Of a stretch of DNA of 64,000 nucleotides, positions 6,432 to 44,574 are shown piece by piece. Position numbers and translations under genes: made by a program. The stretch's first letter is position 1; the number at the start of each line of letters is the position of its first letter. This DNA comes from Shigella phage Silverhawkium, in sequence record MK562505, one strand, 5' to 3'. Under the pieces are notes generated by a model, which saw nothing but the letters and a program-made list of their open reading frames with translations, ran no database searches and was not told the origin of the DNA.

Positions 6432-6691
6432 AAAAGGTCTTTAAAAGGGTCTTTTAATAAGGCTCGGCAATGTTCGGCATGGTCTGGTATAGTCCGGTGC
6501 TGTTCGGCGTGGTAAGGTGAGGTATGGGTAGTTAATCGGAGCTACATAAAAATTCGATTACATCACTTAAGAGTCTTTGAAAAGGGTTTTTAAGTGAGGT
6601 TTGGCTCAGTATGGTTATGTGTGGTGATGTGTGGTTCTGTAAGGTCATGTTTGGTATGGAAGGATGGCAGTAGCCTTATAAAAAATCTGCC
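6430..6691 (+). repeat. modular non-coding repeat block B: two units paralogous to block A, in shuffled order
   Basis: GG-periodic tracts 6461-6536 and 6597-6668; hairpins taatcg/cgatta and ggcag/ctgcc show compensatory changes relative to block A. Confidence 0.7.
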
Positions 6692-20809: not shown

Positions 20810-23025
20810 TATTCATCCTCTGGGTAGCTAGAGTTTAACAAAATATCTTCCTGATTCTTATCAGTGATATCAACCATCTTAGTAGCAATCTGCTTACCAT
20901 CCAGATTAAACGAGACATTAAGAGTTTGCTTAGTTTGCATTGGGAATCCAGAAGGTGTCATCATCATAGGTGTCTGGTTAAACTTAGTTGCAAAGTTGTT
21001 TAGAGACTCAGACAGGTTATTCATAATAATATCCCAATTCGACAAACCATTATCAACTCTCTGAATATTTCCAGAGGCATCTGTGGTATATTGTGCAAAC
21101 TGGAGTTGTCCATTCTGGTCAAAGAACATAGGGCGTTTAGCATTGGTAATCCCAGCAGTAGCTTCGTTGAAAGGATTTGGTGTATTAACATCACTAAACC
21201 TCTTTCCAGCATTAGGGTCAGAAGACCTAGATAGTGCCATTGTTGCCAAGGCTACCTTTACTTGAGGTGGCATTAAAAATGGAGATGCTCTTGGTGCAAC
21301 TTTCTCAGCCACCTCAATGCCAAATCTCTGAAGAATCTTTCGTACAATTGCTGTATCAAAGAATCCAGTGATAAGCTTCGCCACTTTAGCAACGGTTGCT
21401 ACAGCACCACCAATAGCAACAACCGTTGCAAGGAACTCTGAAGCTTCTTTCACTAACTTCTGCTGTCCAGCATCCATTTCCTTGTAATAACCCATTGCTG
21501 TGTAGTACAATGAAGAAATGCGGTACATAATATCTGTCACGAAGTCTAGAAAGTTACTAGCACCTTTCAAAAGGTAACCAATACCAGTACCAAGAGCTTC
21601 AGAAGTACCTAAAGAGCCTTGCAAGAACATTGCAACTGAGTTAGATAGCTGTGAAATACCATCACTAGAGTTATTAAACAGGGCTACCAGAGTGTTATCC
21701 CACATAGCCTTTGCCTGACCCATAGATGTTGCTGTCTGCTTGGAAACGGCATTCATACCACCTGCTGCATCCACCAACTCTCTCATTTTCTCAGAGACTT
21801 TTGGAAGAACATCTTTAGCAAGCAACTTACCGTCTTGCATCAACTTATCAAGCTCCTGTGGAGTCTTGCCAATAGCATCAGAGAATAACTGAACAGCACC
21901 TGCTAAACGGTCACCTAACTGACCACGAAGTTCTTCAGCCTGAATCTTACCTTTAGATGCCATCTGTTGGAAAGCAACCATGATACCTTTCAAGTCTTCA
22001 TCAGATGCCCCTCTAATACGAGAGAACATTGCAGCATTTTTATAGAACTCTTGAGTACCCTGAAAACCTAGTGTTGGTTGAGCACCAGCAGCAAAGTTTG
22101 AGTACTGTTTCATAGTGTCTGTATAGTTCTGACCAATCTGGTGAGCGAACGTTGCAGCGAACATTCTAGCTTGCTGTGTATCTCCACCAAAAATAGCTGT
22201 GGAAGCTAATTGTGCAGACTGTCTTTTAATACCAGCATCAATTGTCTTTTGAGCTAATTCAATCATAGCATATGCAGATACAAATCCACCGATTAACTGT
22301 CTCAGTGATGAGTTTGCTCTATCCTGTAGCCATGCTGATTCTTTGACTGCCTTAAGTCTAGCATTTTCTGCAATAACCCAACGTTTGGTTGTGTCAATGA
22401 GCTTTTTAACTTCCATCTCATATTCACCAACCTTTCCACTCCCTTTATACTTGTTATAGATGCCTTGTAAGTTTCCTCTAAAGGAAGCAGCCATTTGGTT
22501 TCCTTGTCCACCAATTGTTTCAAGACGACGAGTTAACCCAGAATAGAAGTTGTTATTAAACATCCTTTCCATCTGTCTCTGAGCAATATCCGGTCTTACT
22601 CTTGGTGAACCACCACTACCACCTGTTGGTGGAATATTATTACCACGGCCTTTACCAGTTCCACCACGAATATTAACTTTACCTTCAACATTCATAGCTT
22701 GTCTTAAAACCTTGTTAATTTCTTTGGCTGTTTTCTTACCTTGTGTCTCTAATTTACGGAGAGACTTAACACCTTGAGAATCCAAGTTTAGGGCGTTATT
22801 TAGGGATTTATTGATTCTGCCCGAAGCAGTCTGAGCGTTTTTAACAAGTCTGTTTAAAGCTTCTTGAGAACTTTTATTAGGCTTCACATCAAAAGCTTTG
22901 TTAATATTTCTTTCAATACGTTGAGCGGATTGCATAGCCATCTTTTCAACTCTTTGTAAGCCTTTAACTACTTTTTCACTGAATCCAAGTTCAACAATAA
23001 AACTATCAACTGTATACTGTGCCAT
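20809..23025 (-). CDS. tail tape measure protein
   Basis: 738 aa, Ala/Gln/Lys-rich helical with Gly-rich segment [20 protein letters not shown]; follows chaperone pair. Confidence 0.65.
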
Positions 23026-37419: not shown

Positions 37420-37432
37420 CCTAATAAGACTT

Positions 37433-37515
37433 TGGCATGGGACGTAGGATTCGAACCCATTTGAAACGGTTTTGGAGGCCGTCGCACATGCCTTAGTGTC
37501 TTAACATCGTCCCAT
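37433..37515 (-). tRNA. probable tRNA-Trp (anticodon CCA) with atypical extra nucleotides 5' of the D-arm
   Basis: Perfect 7-bp acceptor ATGGGAC/GTCCCAT, anticodon loop CTCCAAA, T-loop TTCGAAT; 83 nt. Confidence 0.4.
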
Positions 37516-37756: not shown

Positions 37757-38003
37757 ATTATCTTTAAAGGCTCTCTTAGAAAACCCTTAAAGATGCCCAC
37801 TTTATTAATCATACCGTGGGCTAGTACGCCAAATTCTTTAACAGGGAGTTGGAATACCCTGCTGGTGTTTAGCCTATTAAGCTACTGCCAGAAAAACATT
37901 ATCGTTTGCATTTATTTTTAAGTTTTTAAAATAGACGCTACGCTAACGAAAACTAAGGTTATCTTAAAGTGGTCACATCTGAATGTCAACAACTTTATGA
38001 AAT

Positions 38004-38078
38004 TGGTTGTAGGTGAGGGTATCGAACCCTCTTCTAACGGTTATCAGCCGTTTGCATTACCATTTATGCTAACCCACA
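38004..38078 (-). tRNA. tRNA-Ile (anticodon GAT)
   Basis: D-arm GCAT/ATGC, anticodon arm AACGG-CTGATAA-CCGTT, T-arm GAGGG-TTCGATA-CCCTC. Confidence 0.7.
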
Positions 38079-38237: not shown

Positions 38238-38424
38238 ATTAAATCATCTTTGCAGTAACCTACGCAAACCTTGCTAAAGGGTTTGTAGAGTCATCTCTTA
38301 GTAAGCTAATCTAGAATCATGCTCAAGAGACTCTTCGGCACTCATGGGACGACTGGTTAGCTCCATAAGTCACTGCAAAGGTGATTACCAGACCGTTGTT
38401 ATCTTAAGTGCTTCCATTACACCA

Positions 38425-38525
38425 ACACGCCGTAACGTGTGAAGGAATCGAACCTTCGCCTTTTCTTTACCAGAGAAATAGATTGTTTAACTTGCTGTAA
38501 ACGGTCTTCTGTAAATTGTTGGAAC
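38425..38525 (-). ncRNA. orphan tRNA-like element (T-arm only) of unknown function
   Basis: Perfect T-arm GAAGG-TTCGATT-CCTTC at 38441-38457 but no matching acceptor, D or anticodon arms; overlaps repeated 24-nt motif. Confidence 0.3.
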
Positions 38526-38659
38526 CAGACCAAGTTTTAAATTTTTCAAAATTAAATTGGCTTGAAATTTTAAGTGACTTGCTGTATTTGGTCTTCTGCT
38601 CCTTTAAAGAATACTCGCAAGAACTCTTTAAGGGAGGGGCTAAATAGCCCTCTCAAAAT

Positions 38660-38915: not shown

Positions 38916-38998
38916 ATGTTAGTATTACCAGACCGTATCTTTTCATTTTTTCCGATAAAAAATTTTAAGTGTTTGCTGTAAACGGCCTTCTGTAAATT

Positions 38999-39074: not shown

Positions 39075-39162
39075 AATTCTTAATGACCAGACCAAATCTT
39101 TTTTGGATTTCTATGCGCGAAATTGAAAAGTTTGTTTGCTGTAATTGGTCTTCTGTCAAAAC

Positions 39163-39326: not shown

Positions 39327-39444
39327 ATAATCTTTTTAAACTCTATGAAACCACTATAACATTATTTTTTAGTGTTTGTCAAGAGGTTTTTTAAAACATT
39401 TTGAAAATCTTTTAGAAAAACTCTTTTTCGTTTCGATGTAGAAC

Positions 39445-39473
39445 ATCTTACAGGGTATCAACAACATTGTCAA
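39445..39473 (-). promoter_or_regulatory. sigma70-like promoter (TTGACA-17-TAAGAT) at head of tRNA island
   Basis: Read on minus strand; sits between vWA gene stop and first tRNA; spacer forms hairpin AGGGTAT...ATACCCT. Confidence 0.45.
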
Positions 39474-39491
39474 TACCCTTTTTAAAACTTT

Positions 39492-40976
39492 TTACCAATC
39501 GTAACGTTCAGACATAACAGCTTTAAGCATTACGCTAATTGGGTCAAACTTCTCACCACCAAGTAGTGCTTTTAAGGTGGCTGGAGAGAAGCCAGATACC
39601 ATAGCTACTCCGTTATCCTTTACAGATACTTCGCAGTTTCCACCACGATTAGCTAGATACCAGAAAACTAACTGAGGCATCTCATAACCAGACTCTTTAT
39701 ACTTACGACGAATTTCTTCGAAGTTAGTATTACCTCGCTGACCATCAACCTGATTGAACTGCATATCAGAGAATATAATAAGCTTACTTGGCATTGCTTC
39801 TTGAGTCAAGTTATTTTTAACACCAATCTCAAGGATTCGGTCAAAAGCTGCTTGAATGTTTGTTGAACCATACTCAACATTCTTCATAACTTGTCGAATA
39901 CGAGTCTCCAGAGAGCCACTCAGGGAGATAAAGTATGGTCTAGTAGAGTAAACCATTAACTCATCTTTGAAGCATCCTGTGTTGCGTTCTGCTACGTATA
40001 GGGCAAGTGATACACCAATATCTAAAGCAGTTACTGAGCCGTGTTTCTCCCAAGTCATAGAGTCAGATACATCAGCCATGCAAAGGATGTTTTCACCATC
40101 TCTCATCCAGTTTGGCAAAGCTTTCCATTGCTCATTAGCAACATCTGCTCGACCATACCGTACAGACTTCGTAATGTCATAAGGGTAGACAGCACCAGCA
40201 TTGATTTTCTCAGTACCTTCTGACAAAGCCTTTACATATTCTGCATAACGTTCTCCACCTTTTCTGGTGAAAAGCTTCTGGTAACGTGCAGCAGCAAGTG
40301 AAGGTAGTTTGCTATAGTCAATCTCACCAAATGAGTTTGCAGAGATTTTCTGCTCAACTGTATCTGATAGCACTGACAGCATCAGTCGGTACTCTTTCTG
40401 GCTTAGATTTGCAAACTTGCAAAAACGTTTTACAAAATCCATATGACGCTTTTTAACCCTTGGGAGCCACTTAGCAGCCAATGCTGAAGTATCTGGGTTA
40501 AGCAGACCTTGCTCAATATGCTTGAAAGCATCTGTCTCATAACGAGTACCCACAAAGATTTTGAAGTCATCAAAACGACCTAGTTCAGAAATCTTATCCA
40601 TAATACGGAGTACTTGGAACTCGTCAATCATATTTGTTCGGATTGCTTCGGTCATTACAGTCCTGAATGCCTTACGTTCGCCCATACCCTCTCGTGCATC
40701 TCGCATATGAAGGAGGATTCGAACCGCTACATCAACATCCTCTCGCAGAGCCTTGTAAAACAAGTTTGGTAGTGCCTCTGTAGAGTTGCGGCTAGAGCCA
40801 GCAGCCTTATAGAAATCTACCAGTGCAGACATTGAGGACAGGTGGTTTACAGCACCATTCTCAGTCAAACCAGCGTGTAAGTTCGCATGGTTAAATAATT
40901 CGCTCATAATATTCTCTCTTCTCTCATTGTTGTTGGTTAGACAGACTCTAGAGTAACCAATAAAGTCTGTCAACAC
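39492..40976 (-). CDS. von Willebrand factor A (vWA) domain protein, about 490 aa; Ro60/TROVE-like architecture is a hypothesis
   Basis: C-terminal MIDAS-type motif DVSDSM (DxSxS); long helical N-terminal region; function not assignable from sequence. Confidence 0.6.
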   Translation of the reverse strand: MLTDFIGYSRVCLTNNNERRENIMSELFNHANLHAGLTENGAVNHLSSMSALVDFYKAAGSSRNSTEALPNLFYKALREDVDVAVRILLHMRDAREGMGERKAFRTVMTEAIRTNMIDEFQVLRIMDKISELGRFDDFKIFVGTRYETDAFKHIEQGLLNPDTSALAAKWLPRVKKRHMDFVKRFCKFANLSQKEYRLMLSVLSDTVEQKISANSFGEIDYSKLPSLAAARYQKLFTRKGGERYAEYVKALSEGTEKINAGAVYPYDITKSVRYGRADVANEQWKALPNWMRDGENILCMADVSDSMTWEKHGSVTALDIGVSLALYVAERNTGCFKDELMVYSTRPYFISLSGSLETRIRQVMKNVEYGSTNIQAAFDRILEIGVKNNLTQEAMPSKLIIFSDMQFNQVDGQRGNTNFEEIRRKYKESGYEMPQLVFWYLANRGGNCEVSVKDNGVAMVSGFSPATLKALLGGEKFDPISVMLKAVMSERYDW

Positions 40977-40985
40977 ATTTTTAAA

Positions 40986-41357
40986 TTATTTCTTCAGGGT
41001 TGCTACAGCAGAGAACGTTGGTTTGTTGTCTTGTGGTTTTTCTCCACCCTTATCACCAACCTTCTTAGAGTCTTCTGCAATGGCTTTCATCTCACCTGCT
41101 GAGTGAGTCATGATGACTTTCCCAGCTTCCATCATAGATTTTAGCTGAACATCATTTGGTGCAAGACCAAACTCTGCAAGCTTAACAGGGTCTCTGGTAA
41201 CAACTGCCTCAAATAACTTTGCAGCAAACTCTGCTGAGTTGTCAATAGTTAATTGAGCTTTTACAAGAGAGCTTTTGTTACGTGAACCTTTTGGTCTCCC
41301 AGAAGGGTTACCGGATTGACCTTTTTTAAACTGGCCTTTGTTTGTTCTTTTGGTCAT
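40986..41357 (-). CDS. hypothetical basic protein (123 aa)
   Basis: N-terminal Lys/Arg-rich segment with GNPSGRPKG motif. Confidence 0.4.
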   Translation of the reverse strand: MTKRTNKGQFKKGQSGNPSGRPKGSRNKSSLVKAQLTIDNSAEFAAKLFEAVVTRDPVKLAEFGLAPNDVQLKSMMEAGKVIMTHSAGEMKAIAEDSKKVGDKGGEKPQDNKPTFSAVATLKK

Positions 41358-42611: not shown

Positions 42612-42980
42612 ATGAAGGCTAAGAGTGGAAAAGACTTTTACTGCTTCTTACAATCTTATGTCCAAAGCGTTCAAGACGGTGACAGGTATAATCTTGATGA
42701 TGTACTTCCGACACCCTTAACATGGCGTGATAGTGAGTGGCCTGAGAAGGATATCAACCCAACTACAGCTACCTTTAAGTATGAACCAAAGATTGAACTT
42801 CCAGATTCAGAGGATTTGTTATATCCGATGTTTCATATTGTTGGTCTTGGAACGTTCTTAATGGATATTCAGTATGTGATGGGTAAAGGCTATAAGATTG
42901 AAGGTGTTGTTCTAGGTGACGTATCACCACAACACAAGGGTTATTTTAGACTAAACGCAAGATTAGAGGCTAATAAATGA
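42612..42980 (+). CDS. hypothetical protein (122 aa), paralogue of N-terminal domain of next gene
   Basis: Shares pattern GDRYNL/GKRYDF, SEWPEKDI/SPWPESDI, FLMDIQYVMGKG/FFMDLQYAIINGKD with ORF 42977. Confidence 0.5.
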   Translation: MKAKSGKDFYCFLQSYVQSVQDGDRYNLDDVLPTPLTWRDSEWPEKDINPTTATFKYEPKIELPDSEDLLYPMFHIVGLGTFLMDIQYVMGKGYKIEGVVLGDVSPQHKGYFRLNARLEANK

Positions 42981-44107
42981 TTAAAGCAAAAACATATCCA
43001 GACTTTAAAGAGTTCGTAAAAGGTTTTATCTCGAACATTAAAGCTGGTAAAAGATATGACTTTAGAACATATCAAGAAGCAATCCTACCACTGACTTATA
43101 GTTCTCCGTGGCCTGAGTCAGACATTCCTGAAGTGACAACGTTTAATTACACACCAGATTACACCGTCCCATTTAGCAATGAGCTTTTGTACTCCGTGGG
43201 TGCTCAAATGAGGACTGCTGACTTCTTCATGGATTTGCAGTATGCAATCATCAATGGTAAAGATGTAGACACTGTTTACTGTGAATGGCTTGCAAGGGTT
43301 AAACCTTTCTCTATGCTGAATGCCAAGTTGAAAGATGCTGTAGTTCCTCCAACAATTACTACACAACCAACTGACCAGACGGTTAATGAAGGGGATACCC
43401 TGACTCTACAGGTTGTTGCCTCAAATGCTACTGGTTATCAGTGGAAGAAGGGTGCTTCTAACATCTCTGGCGCAACTTCTGCAACCTACACAAAGAACTC
43501 TGTAGTCCCTGCTGATGCTGGCTCGTATACATGCGTAGTTTCTGGTGAAGGTGGTTCAAGTGTAACTTCTGATGCAGCTTCAGTAACTGTTAATGCACTA
43601 CCTGTAATCACTGTTCAACCAACTAACCAGACTGTTAATGCTGGTGGTACATTAAACCTTAGCGTAACTGCAACAGGTGCTACGGGTTACCAGTGGAAGA
43701 AAGGTGGGACAGATATCTCTGGAGCAACCTCTGCAACGTTCACTAAGGCAAACGTAACAACTGCTGACGCAGGTTCTTACACTTGTGTTGTGACAGGTGC
43801 TGGTGGCTCTGTAACGTCAAGTGCTGCAACAGTAACTGTGAACACTCCACCAGTGATTACAACTCAGCCTACTGGTGTAACTCTTAACGTAGGTGCTGCA
43901 CTGAACTTAACAGTTGTAGCTACTGGAGCAACTAGCTATCAGTGGAAGAAAGATAATGTAAACATCCCTTCCGCAACTCTGGCAACTTACACTAAAGCAG
44001 CAGTCGTAGCTGGTGATGCAGGAAACTACACTTGCGTAGTAACTGGTGCTGGTGGTTCTGTAACAACTAACCCTGTAAAAGTTGTTGTAAACGCAGTTGG
44101 AGGTTGA
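42977..44107 (+). CDS. protein with N-terminal domain plus three tandem Ig-like domains
   Basis: Three about 83-aa repeats each with ...TGYQWKKG...SGATSATYTK...ADAGSYTCVV...GGSVTS... Confidence 0.6.
   Translation: MIKAKTYPDFKEFVKGFISNIKAGKRYDFRTYQEAILPLTYSSPWPESDIPEVTTFNYTPDYTVPFSNELLYSVGAQMRTADFFMDLQYAIINGKDVDTVYCEWLARVKPFSMLNAKLKDAVVPPTITTQPTDQTVNEGDTLTLQVVASNATGYQWKKGASNISGATSATYTKNSVVPADAGSYTCVVSGEGGSSVTSDAASVTVNALPVITVQPTNQTVNAGGTLNLSVTATGATGYQWKKGGTDISGATSATFTKANVTTADAGSYTCVVTGAGGSVTSSAATVTVNTPPVITTQPTGVTLNVGAALNLTVVATGATSYQWKKDNVNIPSATLATYTKAAVVAGDAGNYTCVVTGAGGSVTTNPVKVVVNAVGG
43343..44104 (+). repeat. three tandem about 250-bp coding repeats (Ig-like domain units)
   Basis: Nucleotide-level tandem repetition underlying the three protein repeats. 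Confidence 0.6.
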
Positions 44108-44574
44108 TAATGAGACTTTCACAGAAAGGTTTAGATGCAATCAAGTTCTTTGAAGGGCTTGAATTAGAAGCTTACCCTGACTCTGCTGGAATCCCAACTA
44201 TCGGGTACGGTACAATTCGTATCCACGGAAAGCCAGTAACAATGGGTATGAAGATTACTGCTGAACAAGCGGAGCAGTATCTTCTTGCAGATGTTGAAAA
44301 CTACGTTGGTGCTGTAGCAAGAGCTATCAAGGTTCCTACTACACAAAACGAGTTTGATGCTCTTGTTATTGAGACTTACAACATTGGTATTGCTGCCATG
44401 CAGGATTCAACCTTTATCAAGCGACACAATGCTGGTGATAAGGCTGGATGTGCAGAAGCTATGCAGTGGTGGAATAAGGTTACCGTCAAAGGTAAGAAAG
44501 TTCCTTCCAATGGTCTGACAAACAGGCGTAGAATGGAAGCACAGATTTATCTTGACGGAGTATATCCAAAATAA
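44104..44574 (+). CDS. endolysin, T4-type lysozyme (GH24)
   Basis: Catalytic region FEGLELEAYPDSAGIPTIGYGT matches lysozyme E...D...T triad spacing. Confidence 0.8.
   Translation: MIMRLSQKGLDAIKFFEGLELEAYPDSAGIPTIGYGTIRIHGKPVTMGMKITAEQAEQYLLADVENYVGAVARAIKVPTTQNEFDALVIETYNIGIAAMQDSTFIKRHNAGDKAGCAEAMQWWNKVTVKGKKVPSNGLTNRRRMEAQIYLDGVYPK

What the first reader, a model, noticed from the sequence alone, without database searches (positions are those of the whole stretch)
39492..40976. vWA-domain protein at the head of the tRNA island: possible Ro60-like RNA-binding protein
A roughly 490 aa protein has a C-terminal vWA domain with MIDAS motif DVSDSM after about 300 helical residues. That architecture is shared by Ro60/Rsr proteins, which bind Y RNAs that contain tRNA-like modules and are often encoded next to tRNAs. 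It sits immediately upstream of a promoter (39445-39473) that faces into the tRNA island, and the island contains an orphan tRNA-like element. The Ro60 assignment is a hypothesis from architecture and context only.
Basis: inference. Interest (0 to 1): 0.6.

Follow-up and report, generated by a model that had tools for sequence, protein, structure and literature searches.

The report
Phage Ro60-like protein with Y-like RNAs
The gene encodes a phage version of the ring-shaped RNA-binding protein Ro60, and the tRNA cluster just downstream holds four small RNAs, apparently not yet described, that look like its RNA partners and recur next to this protein family in very different phages.

Summary
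An ORF at 39492-40976 (-) encodes a helical N-terminal region followed by a vWA domain with a complete MIDAS site. The real start is most likely ATG 40907, giving 471 aa.

What appears new is the RNA side. The tRNA island holds four elements of one design, here called E1-E4: a 7-8 bp closing helix, the motif CAGCAA starting 10 nt after the first helix base, a variable loop, and an unpaired G after the helix. E4 carries a circularly permuted tRNA-like module, as the bacterial Y RNA YrlA does.

The same design lies beside DUF2828 genes in 60 of 80 metagenomic phage loci: 108 hits on the gene strand, 7 on the other, about 5 in shuffles. It also occurs in Mycobacterium, Listeria, Bacillus, Campylobacter and Klebsiella phages. 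Rfam 15 has no matching family. Binding is inferred, not shown.

The parts
39492..40907 (-). Gene for a 471-aa Ro60-fold protein of the DUF2828 + DUF7788 family: a helical repeat ring plus a vWA domain with MIDAS D-x-S-x-S, T, D. The mechanical ORF runs on to the GTG at 40976.
   Evidence: It is 79% identical to Bas63 gp130.
40945..40973 (-). Sigma-70-like promoter in front of the gene (TTGACA, 17 nt, TAGAGT). It overlaps the GTG that the mechanical ORF starts from.
   Evidence: Consensus match only.
39445..39473 (-). Promoter-like site facing the tRNA island (TTGACA, 17 nt, TAAGAT), set inside a stable inverted repeat GGGTAT...ATACCC at 39446-39484.
   Evidence: The hairpin has z -4.7. Promoter and inverted repeat are kept in seven relatives.
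39353..39382 (-). Second and stronger promoter-like site, directly before tRNA-Pro (TTGACA, 18 nt, TG-TATAGT).
39084..39158 (-). E1, a short Y-like RNA candidate between tRNA-Glu and tRNA-Met. Outer helix UGAC/GUCA, internal loop AGA/G, inner helix AGACCAA/UUGGUCU, CAGCAA at 39141-39136. The core is 39088-39151.
38925..38995 (-). E2, a short Y-like RNA candidate between tRNA-Met and tRNA-Asn. Outer helix UUAC/GUAA, inner helix AGGCCGU/ACGGUCU. The core is 38929-38988.
   Evidence: In relatives the outer helix changes on both sides, UUAC/GUAA to UUGC/GCAA.
38521..38602 (-). E3, a short Y-like RNA candidate after tRNA-Asp. Outer helix GGAGC/GUUCC, inner helix AGACCAA/UUGGUCU. The core is 38526-38594.
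38385..38514 (-). E4, a long Y-like RNA candidate with a circularly permuted tRNA-like module. CAGCAA at 38497-38492; anticodon-arm-like hairpin 38462-38478; T arm 38441-38457 (loop UUCGAUU); closed acceptor-like hairpin 38425-38440 (6 bp, loop UACG); D arm 38407-38423 (loop AAUGGAA). The core is 38389-38507.
   Evidence: In relatives the acceptor hairpin changes on both sides, ACACG/CGUGU to ACUCG/CGAGU.

Best explanation
The gene encodes a divergent member of the Ro60 fold class: a ring of helical repeats closed by a vWA domain with an intact metal site. It belongs to the large, mostly phage-borne DUF2828 family.

The gene appears to have its own promoter. Just downstream, two promoter-like sites face the tRNA island. 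I infer that host tRNA-processing enzymes cut this precursor and thereby release four non-tRNA RNAs that lie between tRNAs.

Each of these RNAs has its two ends paired in a 7-8 bp helix. The helix usually starts A/U-G-R, ends Y-C-U/A, and is followed by an unpaired G. The single-stranded motif CAGCAA sits at a fixed distance from the first helix base. I infer that this helix plus motif is the site the protein binds, as Ro60 and Rsr bind the conserved helix and motif of Y RNAs.

One RNA, E4, also carries a tRNA look-alike in permuted order (T arm, closed acceptor stem, D arm), as bacterial YrlA does. The other three are short, like YrlB.

By analogy with Rsr/Y RNA particles, the complex probably gates or tethers an RNA-handling enzyme such as host PNPase or RNA repair enzymes, or shields RNAs during infection. 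In the Bas63 orthologue the protein is needed against the Ppl defence.

Shown here: the fold, the family, the RNA design and its co-occurrence with the gene. Inferred: binding, processing and biochemical role.
For: Protein
- AlphaFold model with pLDDT 90.6 and pTM 0.90.
- Foldseek top 11 hits are all full-length Ro60.
- Pfam 'Ro60 vWA domain' is hit by 12 of 56 homologues.
- The orthologue Bas63 gp130 has the same synteny, and published genetics show it counters Ppl.

RNAs in the window
- The 5' pattern AGAAGRCC-N(2-4)-TACAGCAA occurs four times against 0.00 expected. GGTCTGGT occurs six times against 1.13 expected, four of them in the island.
- All four elements fold with paired ends.

RNAs elsewhere
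- A fixed-register descriptor gives 108 hits on the gene's strand in 80 loci found through the protein, with 60 loci positive. It gives 7 hits on the other strand, and 5.2 on average (at most 13) in dinucleotide shuffles. With an earlier, stricter descriptor (exact ACAGCAA), 38 of 53 hits lay within 1 kb of the gene.
- 26 positive loci hold no tRNA gene in about 13 kb, so the element follows the gene and not tRNA arrays.
- Reverse test: an RNA pattern alone recovered 120 loci. DUF2828 is the commonest protein family in them, present in 38, always on the same strand, at a median distance of 292 nt. Only 709 of 50,697 phage records have the protein at all.
- The helix sequence is free but pairing is kept: helix positions 4-7 each show all four Watson-Crick pair types.
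- The same design lies next to the gene in Mycobacterium phage Wilder, Listeria LMTA-57, Bacillus MrDarsey, Campylobacter NCTC12673 and Klebsiella KP2025.
- Of 360 distinct elements in all held DNA, 32 carry a T arm, a closed acceptor stem and a D arm in tRNA geometry.
- Among eight Ounavirinae genomes the loops diverge while helix and motif stay fixed, with changes on both sides of pairs in two helices.
Against: - No experiment links the RNAs to the protein.
- The Pfam TROVE model and the Rfam YrlA and Y_RNA models do not match.
- The motif differs from the known Ro60 sites GGUCCGA and GNCGAAN0-1G.
- Bas63 gp130 expressed alone from a plasmid, or inserted into T7, is enough to counter Ppl. 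That activity therefore does not need the phage RNAs.
- 82 of the 120 RNA-pattern loci show no DUF2828 gene in the DNA held. The pieces are short, and at least five come from contigs known to carry the gene.
- No element was seen near the gene in Vibrio phi-ST2 or Staphylococcus Alsa_1.
- The pair counts come from elements that were selected for pairing, so only the controls carry weight.
Confidence: 0.65

Rival explanations
1. The protein is an anti-defence factor that works without dedicated phage RNAs, through its vWA metal site or by binding host RNAs. The four elements belong to the tRNA cluster for another reason, such as processing or spacing signals, or decoys for host tRNA-cutting nucleases.
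For: gp130 alone rescues T7 on a Ppl host. Many RNA-pattern loci are tRNA-rich and show no DUF2828 gene in the held DNA. The vWA MIDAS residues are invariant.
Against: 26 loci have elements beside the gene and no tRNA within about 13 kb. The strand is the same in 38 of 38 loci, and the median distance is 292 nt. DUF2828 is the only widely shared protein neighbour. A 7-8 bp helix is too short for RNase III and no U-tract follows it, so a processing or terminator role has no obvious basis (inference).
Confidence: 0.2
2. The elements are cis-acting sites on the gene's own transcript or on the tRNA precursor. The protein binds them to control its own expression or tRNA maturation, and they do not accumulate as free, stable RNAs.
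For: In many loci the elements start 25-40 nt after the stop codon or lie just upstream of the start, on the same strand. A helix resembling the element's closing helix overlaps the promoter right after the stop codon in the window.
Against: In the window the elements sit between tRNAs, so the cuts that mature the neighbouring tRNAs should also release them. Known bacterial Y RNAs are likewise cut from a shared precursor next to rsr. The tRNA-like modules with 7-bp acceptor stems suggest independent folded RNAs.
Confidence: 0.1
3. The four elements are a local repeat family, such as remnants of duplication or of a small mobile element, and have no function of their own.
For: Within the window the four copies share long identical stretches.
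Against: The design recurs with unrelated helix sequences in phages of distant hosts. It is strand-specific, 108 hits against 7. Loops diverge while helix and motif are kept.
Confidence: 0.03

Closest known systems
Bacterial Rsr (Ro60) with YrlA and YrlB RNAs (Chen et al. 2014, PMC4201824)
   Same: A ring-plus-vWA protein encoded within a few kb of, and on the same strand as, two or more small RNAs whose ends pair. One RNA carries a tRNA-like module with T arm, closed acceptor stem and D arm; the others are short. The RNAs are cut from a shared precursor.
   Different: The protein is Pfam DUF2828, not TROVE. The conserved RNA motif is CAGCAA at a fixed distance from the helix start, not GNCGAAN0-1G. 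The Rfam YrlA model does not match. The RNAs are embedded in a phage tRNA array.
Thermus phage phiLo Ro60 with Yrl1 and Yrl2 (PMC12135203; PDB 9KOP, 9L5Y)
   Different: The phiLo protein is a TROVE-domain protein and its RNAs carry the CGAA motif. Sequence identity to the window protein is 15-18%.
Bas63 (Felixounavirus) gp130 (PhageMaP preprint, 10.1101/2024.10.10.617714)
   Different: No RNA partner was identified there. The candidates found here lie between the annotated tRNAs, not among them. In Bas63 they are at L089 22073-22139, about 22240-22300, 22695-22762 and 22782-22907.
'Ro-like RNA binding protein' of cluster L mycobacteriophages (for example Wilder gp55, LeBron gp53)
   Same: The same protein family at about 33% identity. 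Wilder has three elements of the same design right after the gene. LeBron gp53 is moderately toxic when overproduced.
   Different: The helix begins UGG and ends CCA rather than AGA and UCU. The record annotates part of the long element as tRNA-Asn.

Membership tests
Pfam DUF2828 / DUF7788 protein family | Matches to both Pfam models above their gathering scores | tested here: met
   DUF7788 scores 148 bits against a cut-off of 27.1. DUF2828 scores 91.6 bits against a cut-off of 29. PHROG 850 matches at E 1e-171.
Ro60 / TROVE family | Sequence match to the TROVE domain model (PF05731) | tested here: not met
   No TROVE hit at E up to 1 for the protein, or at E up to 10 for any of 56 homologues. 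A profile search of PDB sequences reaches Ro60 only at E 0.68, at the MIDAS segment.
Ro60 / TROVE family | Helical-repeat ring closed by a C-terminal vWA domain, seen as whole-protein fold similarity | tested here: met
Ro60 / TROVE family | vWA domain of the Ro60 type with a MIDAS site | tested here: inconclusive
   The MIDAS residues are invariant. Pfam vWA_Ro60 is matched by 12 of 56 homologues, best E 4.7e-4, but not by the window protein itself.
Ro60 / TROVE family | Binds Y RNAs and misfolded RNAs | not testable with these tools
   This needs immunoprecipitation, CLIP or gel-shift assays.
YrlA RNA (Rfam RF02553) | Match to the covariance model at its gathering score of 69 bits | tested here: not met
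   No YrlA hit on E4 at E up to 10. The only YrlA hit in the region scores 21.8 bits and lies over two adjacent tRNAs. No hit in 11 related loci.
YrlA RNA (Rfam RF02553) | GNCGAAN0-1G motif near the 5' end | tested here: not met
   The conserved 5' motif is CAGCAA. E4 contains GGCGAAG, but that is part of its T stem and it changes to GGAGAAG in L004.
YrlA RNA (Rfam RF02553) | tRNA-like module in the order T arm, closed acceptor stem, D arm, enclosed by a helix formed by the two RNA ends | tested here: met
   This is the minimum-energy fold of E4 and of most of 13 counterparts. 32 of 360 elements meet an explicit geometric test.
Metazoan Y RNA (Rfam RF00019) | Match to the model, with a bulged helix carrying GGUCCGA on the 5' strand | tested here: not met
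   No hit at E up to 5. In the window a conserved GGUCUGG lies on the 3' strand instead.

The most novel reading that the evidence does not exclude
DUF2828 proteins form a second large branch of Ro60-like proteins: about 9,000 clusters at 50% identity. They have their own, so far undescribed class of partner RNAs, defined by a closing helix, the motif CAGCAA and a trailing G. These RNAs come in short and tRNA-mimicking forms and are spread across phages of Proteobacteria, Firmicutes, Actinobacteria and Campylobacterota. Together protein and RNA would form a phage particle that acts on host RNA turnover or repair, or on defence systems such as Ppl.
Probability: 0.5. Interest if true: 0.75.

Novelty: new variant of a known kind. 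Interest (0 to 1): 0.62.

Why it matters
Ro60 and its Y RNAs are a long-studied pair whose roles in bacteria and phages are still only partly understood. A very large phage protein family shares the fold: 8,958 cluster representatives at E 0.001 or better. One member has a proven anti-defence phenotype, yet no RNA partner has been named for the family.

The elements found here give concrete, sequence-defined candidates in a phage that can be manipulated genetically (Bas63 and its relatives). They answer the guess made by the authors of the Bas63 study. They also come with a simple rule that can be mutated and tested: helix, CAGCAA, G.

Finally, they explain some doubtful tRNA calls in phage genome records, such as 'tRNA-Asn' in phage Wilder.

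Tried and rejected
- Sequence search of PDB with the single protein found nothing. With the profile it found only a marginal Ro60 hit.
- Rfam Y_RNA and YrlA gave no credible match.
- A covariance model built from loop-trimmed elements (R1) could not bridge the long natural loops. It missed all four true elements and found only unrelated hairpins, so I dropped it as a search tool.
- MAFFT plus RNAalifold on 14 tRNA-like elements gave no consensus because the 3' ends were misaligned. I used single-sequence folds and an explicit geometric test instead.
- My first helix descriptors were too permissive: 6 bp anywhere within 220 nt was met by 77 of 164 controls. I replaced them with a fixed-register rule.
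- Two further descriptor hits in the window, at 62073-61939 and 60457-60356, lie inside coding ORFs. They match the chance expectation of 0.94, so I rejected them.
- A literature search for 'ACAGCAA' was uninformative.
- The 2020 Annual Review on bacterial Ro60 and the supplement of Chen et al. 2014 are not held. I therefore could not check whether any DUF2828 phage was in their phage list.
- A search on how Ppl works found nothing useful.

Full report
WHAT IS THERE

The window is a Mooglevirus-like member of the Ounavirinae. An 8-kb stretch around the finding is 89% identical in DNA to Shigella phages Sf13-Sf18 and to Citrobacter phage Michonne, with the same gene order. The order on the minus strand is a DUF5681 protein, the gene in question, a run of 26 tRNA genes, and then the large terminase and portal genes.

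The mechanical ORF is 39492..40976 (-), 494 aa from a GTG. Close homologues are 471 aa and start at the residue matching M24. The GTG sits inside the -35 hexamer of a promoter-like site at 40973-40945, and a purine-rich stretch precedes ATG 40907. I therefore place the gene at 39492..40907.

THE PROTEIN

Pfam assigns residues 298-478 of the 494-aa ORF to DUF7788 (a vWA-type domain, E 2.8e-43) and residues 194-292 to the end of DUF2828 (E 6.3e-26). TROVE is not matched. PHROG 850, labelled 'RNA-binding protein', matches end to end at E 1e-171.

In an alignment of 56 homologues the MIDAS residues D279, S281, S283, T349 and D381 are invariant. So is a set of arginines and aromatic residues in the helical part.

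An AlphaFold model built on that alignment is confident, with pLDDT 90.6 and pTM 0.90. Structure searches gave these results:
- Foldseek against the PDB returns eleven full-length Ro60/TROVE structures as its top hits. They are Thermus phage phiLo Ro60, Xenopus and human Ro60, and D. radiodurans Rsr, at E 2e-9 to 4e-6. After them come bare vWA domains at E above 1e-3.
- At sequence level the only links are a marginal profile hit to Ro60 at the MIDAS segment (E 0.68) and matches of 12 of 56 homologues to Pfam's 'Ro60 vWA domain' (best E 4.7e-4).

The protein therefore has the Ro60 fold but fails the usual sequence test for TROVE. I file it as a DUF2828-family, Ro60-like protein.

The family is large. 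A profile search finds 8,958 cluster representatives at E 0.001 or better and 4,163 at 1e-30 or better. In GenBank phages, 709 of 50,697 records carry it, in phages of Escherichia, Salmonella, Mycobacterium, Vibrio, Listeria, Staphylococcus, Campylobacter, Bacillus and others. Annotations range from 'hypothetical protein' to 'Ro-like RNA binding protein'.

WHAT WAS ALREADY KNOWN

The window protein is 79% identical over all 471 residues to Bas63 gp130 (locus tag bas63_0130), which sits in the same place before the same tRNA series. The PhageMaP preprint reports the following:
- Deleting it cripples Bas63 on a host carrying the Ppl defence.
- gp130 alone, from a plasmid or inserted into T7, restores T7 plaques on that host.
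- The authors speculate that some annotated tRNAs might be Y RNAs, but they name none.

True TROVE-type Ro60 proteins with Y-like RNAs are known in mycobacteriophages, Caulobacter phage CcrColossus, Bacillus phage G and Thermus phage phiLo. In phiLo they bind host PNPase. The cluster L1 mycobacteriophage member, LeBron gp53, is moderately toxic when overproduced.

THE RNAS

Reading the minus strand of the island, I found four stretches that begin AGAAGRCC-NNN-TACAGCAA and end GGTCTGGT. The 5' pattern occurs four times in the window against 0.00 expected. GGTCTGGT occurs six times against 1.13 expected, four of them in the island.

Each stretch folds with its ends paired. The fold is an outer 4-5 bp helix, an internal loop AGA/G, and an inner 7-8 bp helix AGRCCNN/NNGGUCU enclosing a loop of 38-95 nt. 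Their positions are:
- E1 (39158-39084) fills the gap between tRNA-Glu and tRNA-Met.
- E2 (38995-38925) fills the gap between tRNA-Met and tRNA-Asn.
- E3 (38602-38521) and E4 (38514-38385) follow tRNA-Asp.

Cuts that mature the neighbouring tRNAs should release these RNAs. That step is inference.

E4 contains the orphan tRNA-like signal (Rfam tRNA, 35.5 bits). Its parts come in permuted order:
- an anticodon-arm-like hairpin;
- a T arm with loop UUCGAUU;
- directly abutting it, a 6-bp hairpin closed by UACG, where a tRNA has its acceptor stem;
- one nucleotide later, a D arm with loop AAUGGAA.

This is the layout described for bacterial YrlA, in which the acceptor stem is closed and the RNA ends lie on the anticodon side.

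IS IT MORE THAN A LOCAL REPEAT?

I fetched 80 metagenomic viral loci through the protein alone, at 38-80% identity. The motif ACAGCAA is over-represented on the gene's strand: 164 occurrences, against 57 on the other strand and 77.5 in shuffles. Typically it lies just after or just before the gene.

Inspection showed a fixed register. CAGCAA starts exactly 10 nt after the first base of a helix whose partner strand is followed by G. A descriptor with that register (7 pairs, at most one G-U, loop of 15-250 nt) gave these results:
- 108 hits on the gene strand in 60 of the 80 loci, 7 hits on the opposite strand, and 5.2 on average (at most 13) in 30 dinucleotide shuffles.
- With an earlier, stricter descriptor that required exact ACAGCAA, 38 of 53 hits lay within 1 kb of the gene.
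- 26 positive loci have no tRNA gene in the roughly 13 kb held, and there the elements start 25-40 nt after the stop codon or lie just upstream. The element therefore tracks the gene and not tRNA arrays.

In 76 non-redundant elements, every helix position shows changes on both sides of the pair, and positions 4-7 each show all four Watson-Crick pair types. Position 2 is G-C in 70 of 76. These elements were selected for pairing, so the weight lies on the strand and shuffle controls, not on the 100% pairing figure.

The same design lies beside the gene in cultured phages of distant hosts:
- Mycobacterium phage Wilder has three copies right after the gene. The long copy overlaps the record's 'tRNA-Asn'.
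- Listeria phage LMTA-57 has three copies just upstream.
- Bacillus phage MrDarsey has five copies.
- Campylobacter phage NCTC12673 has two copies.
- Klebsiella phage KP2025 has at least two clear copies (a few weaker candidates lie nearby).
- Bas63 has four copies.

I saw none near the gene in Vibrio phage phi-ST2 or Staphylococcus phage Alsa_1.

Lengths are bimodal, at about 51-72 nt and about 95-136 nt, with a longer tail. Of 360 distinct elements in all the DNA held, 73 have a T arm. Of those, 32 also have an abutting closed acceptor-like stem, mostly 7 bp, and a D arm with GG in the loop at tRNA spacing.

REVERSE TEST

A pattern taken from the RNA alone, AGGATNNNTACAGCAA-N(30-60)-ATCCTG, recovered 120 viral loci.
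- 38 of them hold a DUF2828 homologue in the DNA held, always on the same strand as the element, at a median distance of 292 nt.
- DUF2828 is the commonest protein family in these loci. The next largest clusters (18 and 11 loci) look like antisense reading frames inside the DUF2828 gene; the largest independent family reaches 16 loci.
- The other loci are tRNA-rich. At least five are short pieces of contigs known from the first search to carry the gene. Whether the rest have the gene further away could not be tested.

CONSERVATION AMONG CLOSE RELATIVES

All eight Ounavirinae genomes examined have four elements in the same order. The E1 and E2 loops are nearly unalignable between the window and the Felixounavirus sequences, while helix, motif and trailing G are fixed.

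The base before CAGCAA varies among A, G and U. The outer helix of E2 changes from UUAC/GUAA to UUGC/GCAA. The acceptor-like hairpin of E4 changes from ACACG/CGUGU to ACUCG/CGAGU.

COMPARISON WITH KNOWN RNA FAMILIES

Rfam 15 has no family matching E1-E4 at E up to 5. Scattered matches far below threshold to unrelated families overlap parts of E1, E2 and E4. No YrlA hit appears in 11 related loci at gathering score. The motif is not the GGUCCGA of animal Y RNAs or the GNCGAAN0-1G of YrlA.

Searches of the held literature found no description of RNA partners for DUF2828 proteins. That library is incomplete.

HOW IT MOST LIKELY WORKS

Shown here are the Ro60 fold, the intact MIDAS site, a family-wide adjacent RNA with a conserved helix-and-motif signature, and tRNA-mimicking and short forms of that RNA.

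I infer that the protein binds the helix plus CAGCAA, as Ro60 binds the conserved stem of Y RNAs. I also infer that the RNAs are freed by tRNA processing. The particle would then gate or tether an RNA enzyme, or shield RNAs.

Two context observations fit an RNA-metabolism role. Listeria phage LMTA-57 encodes an RtcB-type ligase 1.3 kb downstream. This echoes the bacterial rsr-yrlBA-rtcBA arrangement, which I cite from established knowledge of that operon. LeBron encodes an RNA ligase and a polynucleotide kinase.

The published anti-Ppl activity works with the protein alone. Either the RNAs serve another function, or they modulate that activity, or host RNAs can substitute.

VERDICT

The protein assignment is already in databases and in a 2024 preprint. 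The added value is a probable new class of Y-like RNAs for this protein family, supported by statistics and comparative data but not by experiment.

Noticed in passing
window 38238-38384 (-): The gap between E4 and tRNA-Lys folds into a very stable structure closed by a helix of about 17 bp (-48.8 kcal/mol, z -4.6, 0 of 200 shuffles as good). Felixounavirus relatives keep a long closing helix with a different sequence (GCAGUGAC/GUUACUGC against GUAGAUAAG/CUUAUCUAC). It looks like another structured RNA, and Bas63 annotates small minus-strand ORFs over it.
   Followed up: partly
window 37430-37513 (-): A second tRNA-like sequence not called by ARAGORN. It has a paired acceptor-like stem, a T loop GGUUCGAAUCC and an oversized anticodon-like loop. 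Rfam gives only a weak tRNA-Sec hit (21.5 bits).
   Followed up: partly
window 37877-38064 (-): A weak Rfam hit to permuted tmRNA (34.7 bits, threshold 47) spans the end of tRNA-Ile, a promoter-like site (37989-37961) and the following spacer. It is probably driven by the tRNA half.
   Followed up: no
window 39446-39484 (-): The promoter-like site right after the stop codon sits inside a strong inverted repeat GGGUAU...AUACCC (z -4.7). The repeat is kept in seven relatives and could be an operator or an RNA hairpin. Its helix starts AGG and ends CCU, like the closing helix of the elements, but it lacks CAGCAA.
   Followed up: partly
window 40986-41357 (-): The gene just upstream encodes a 123-aa DUF5681 protein (PHROG 4114, function unknown). 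It occupies the same position in Sf17 and Bas63.
   Followed up: no
L083 6509-6631 (Mycobacterium phage Wilder): The record's 'tRNA-Asn' (6510-6580) lies inside a long element whose tRNA-like parts are in permuted order. It is probably not a tRNA gene. Similar doubtful calls occur in Klebsiella phage KP2025 (L082), which has a 'tRNA-Pseudo' and a 432-nt 'tRNA-Arg'.
   Followed up: partly
L084 7868-9079 and 1001-1099 (Listeria phage LMTA-57): An RtcB-type 'tRNA-splicing ligase' lies 1.3 kb downstream of the DUF2828 gene. A 'drum' RNA (Rfam RF02958, 50.2 bits) lies within the tRNA array upstream.
   Followed up: no
L012 5276-5370, L013 3133-3232, L015 1265-1373, L061 5734-5828: A subgroup of elements carries a different conserved insert (CCUUUCYGGAGGGGAAAGCAAAAACUCGCCAAAA) in place of a tRNA-like module. 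This may be a third form of the RNA.
   Followed up: no
window 42977-44107 (+): A protein with three tandem Ig-like repeats, annotated as a tail protein in Sf17, is followed by an endolysin at 44104-44574.
   Followed up: no
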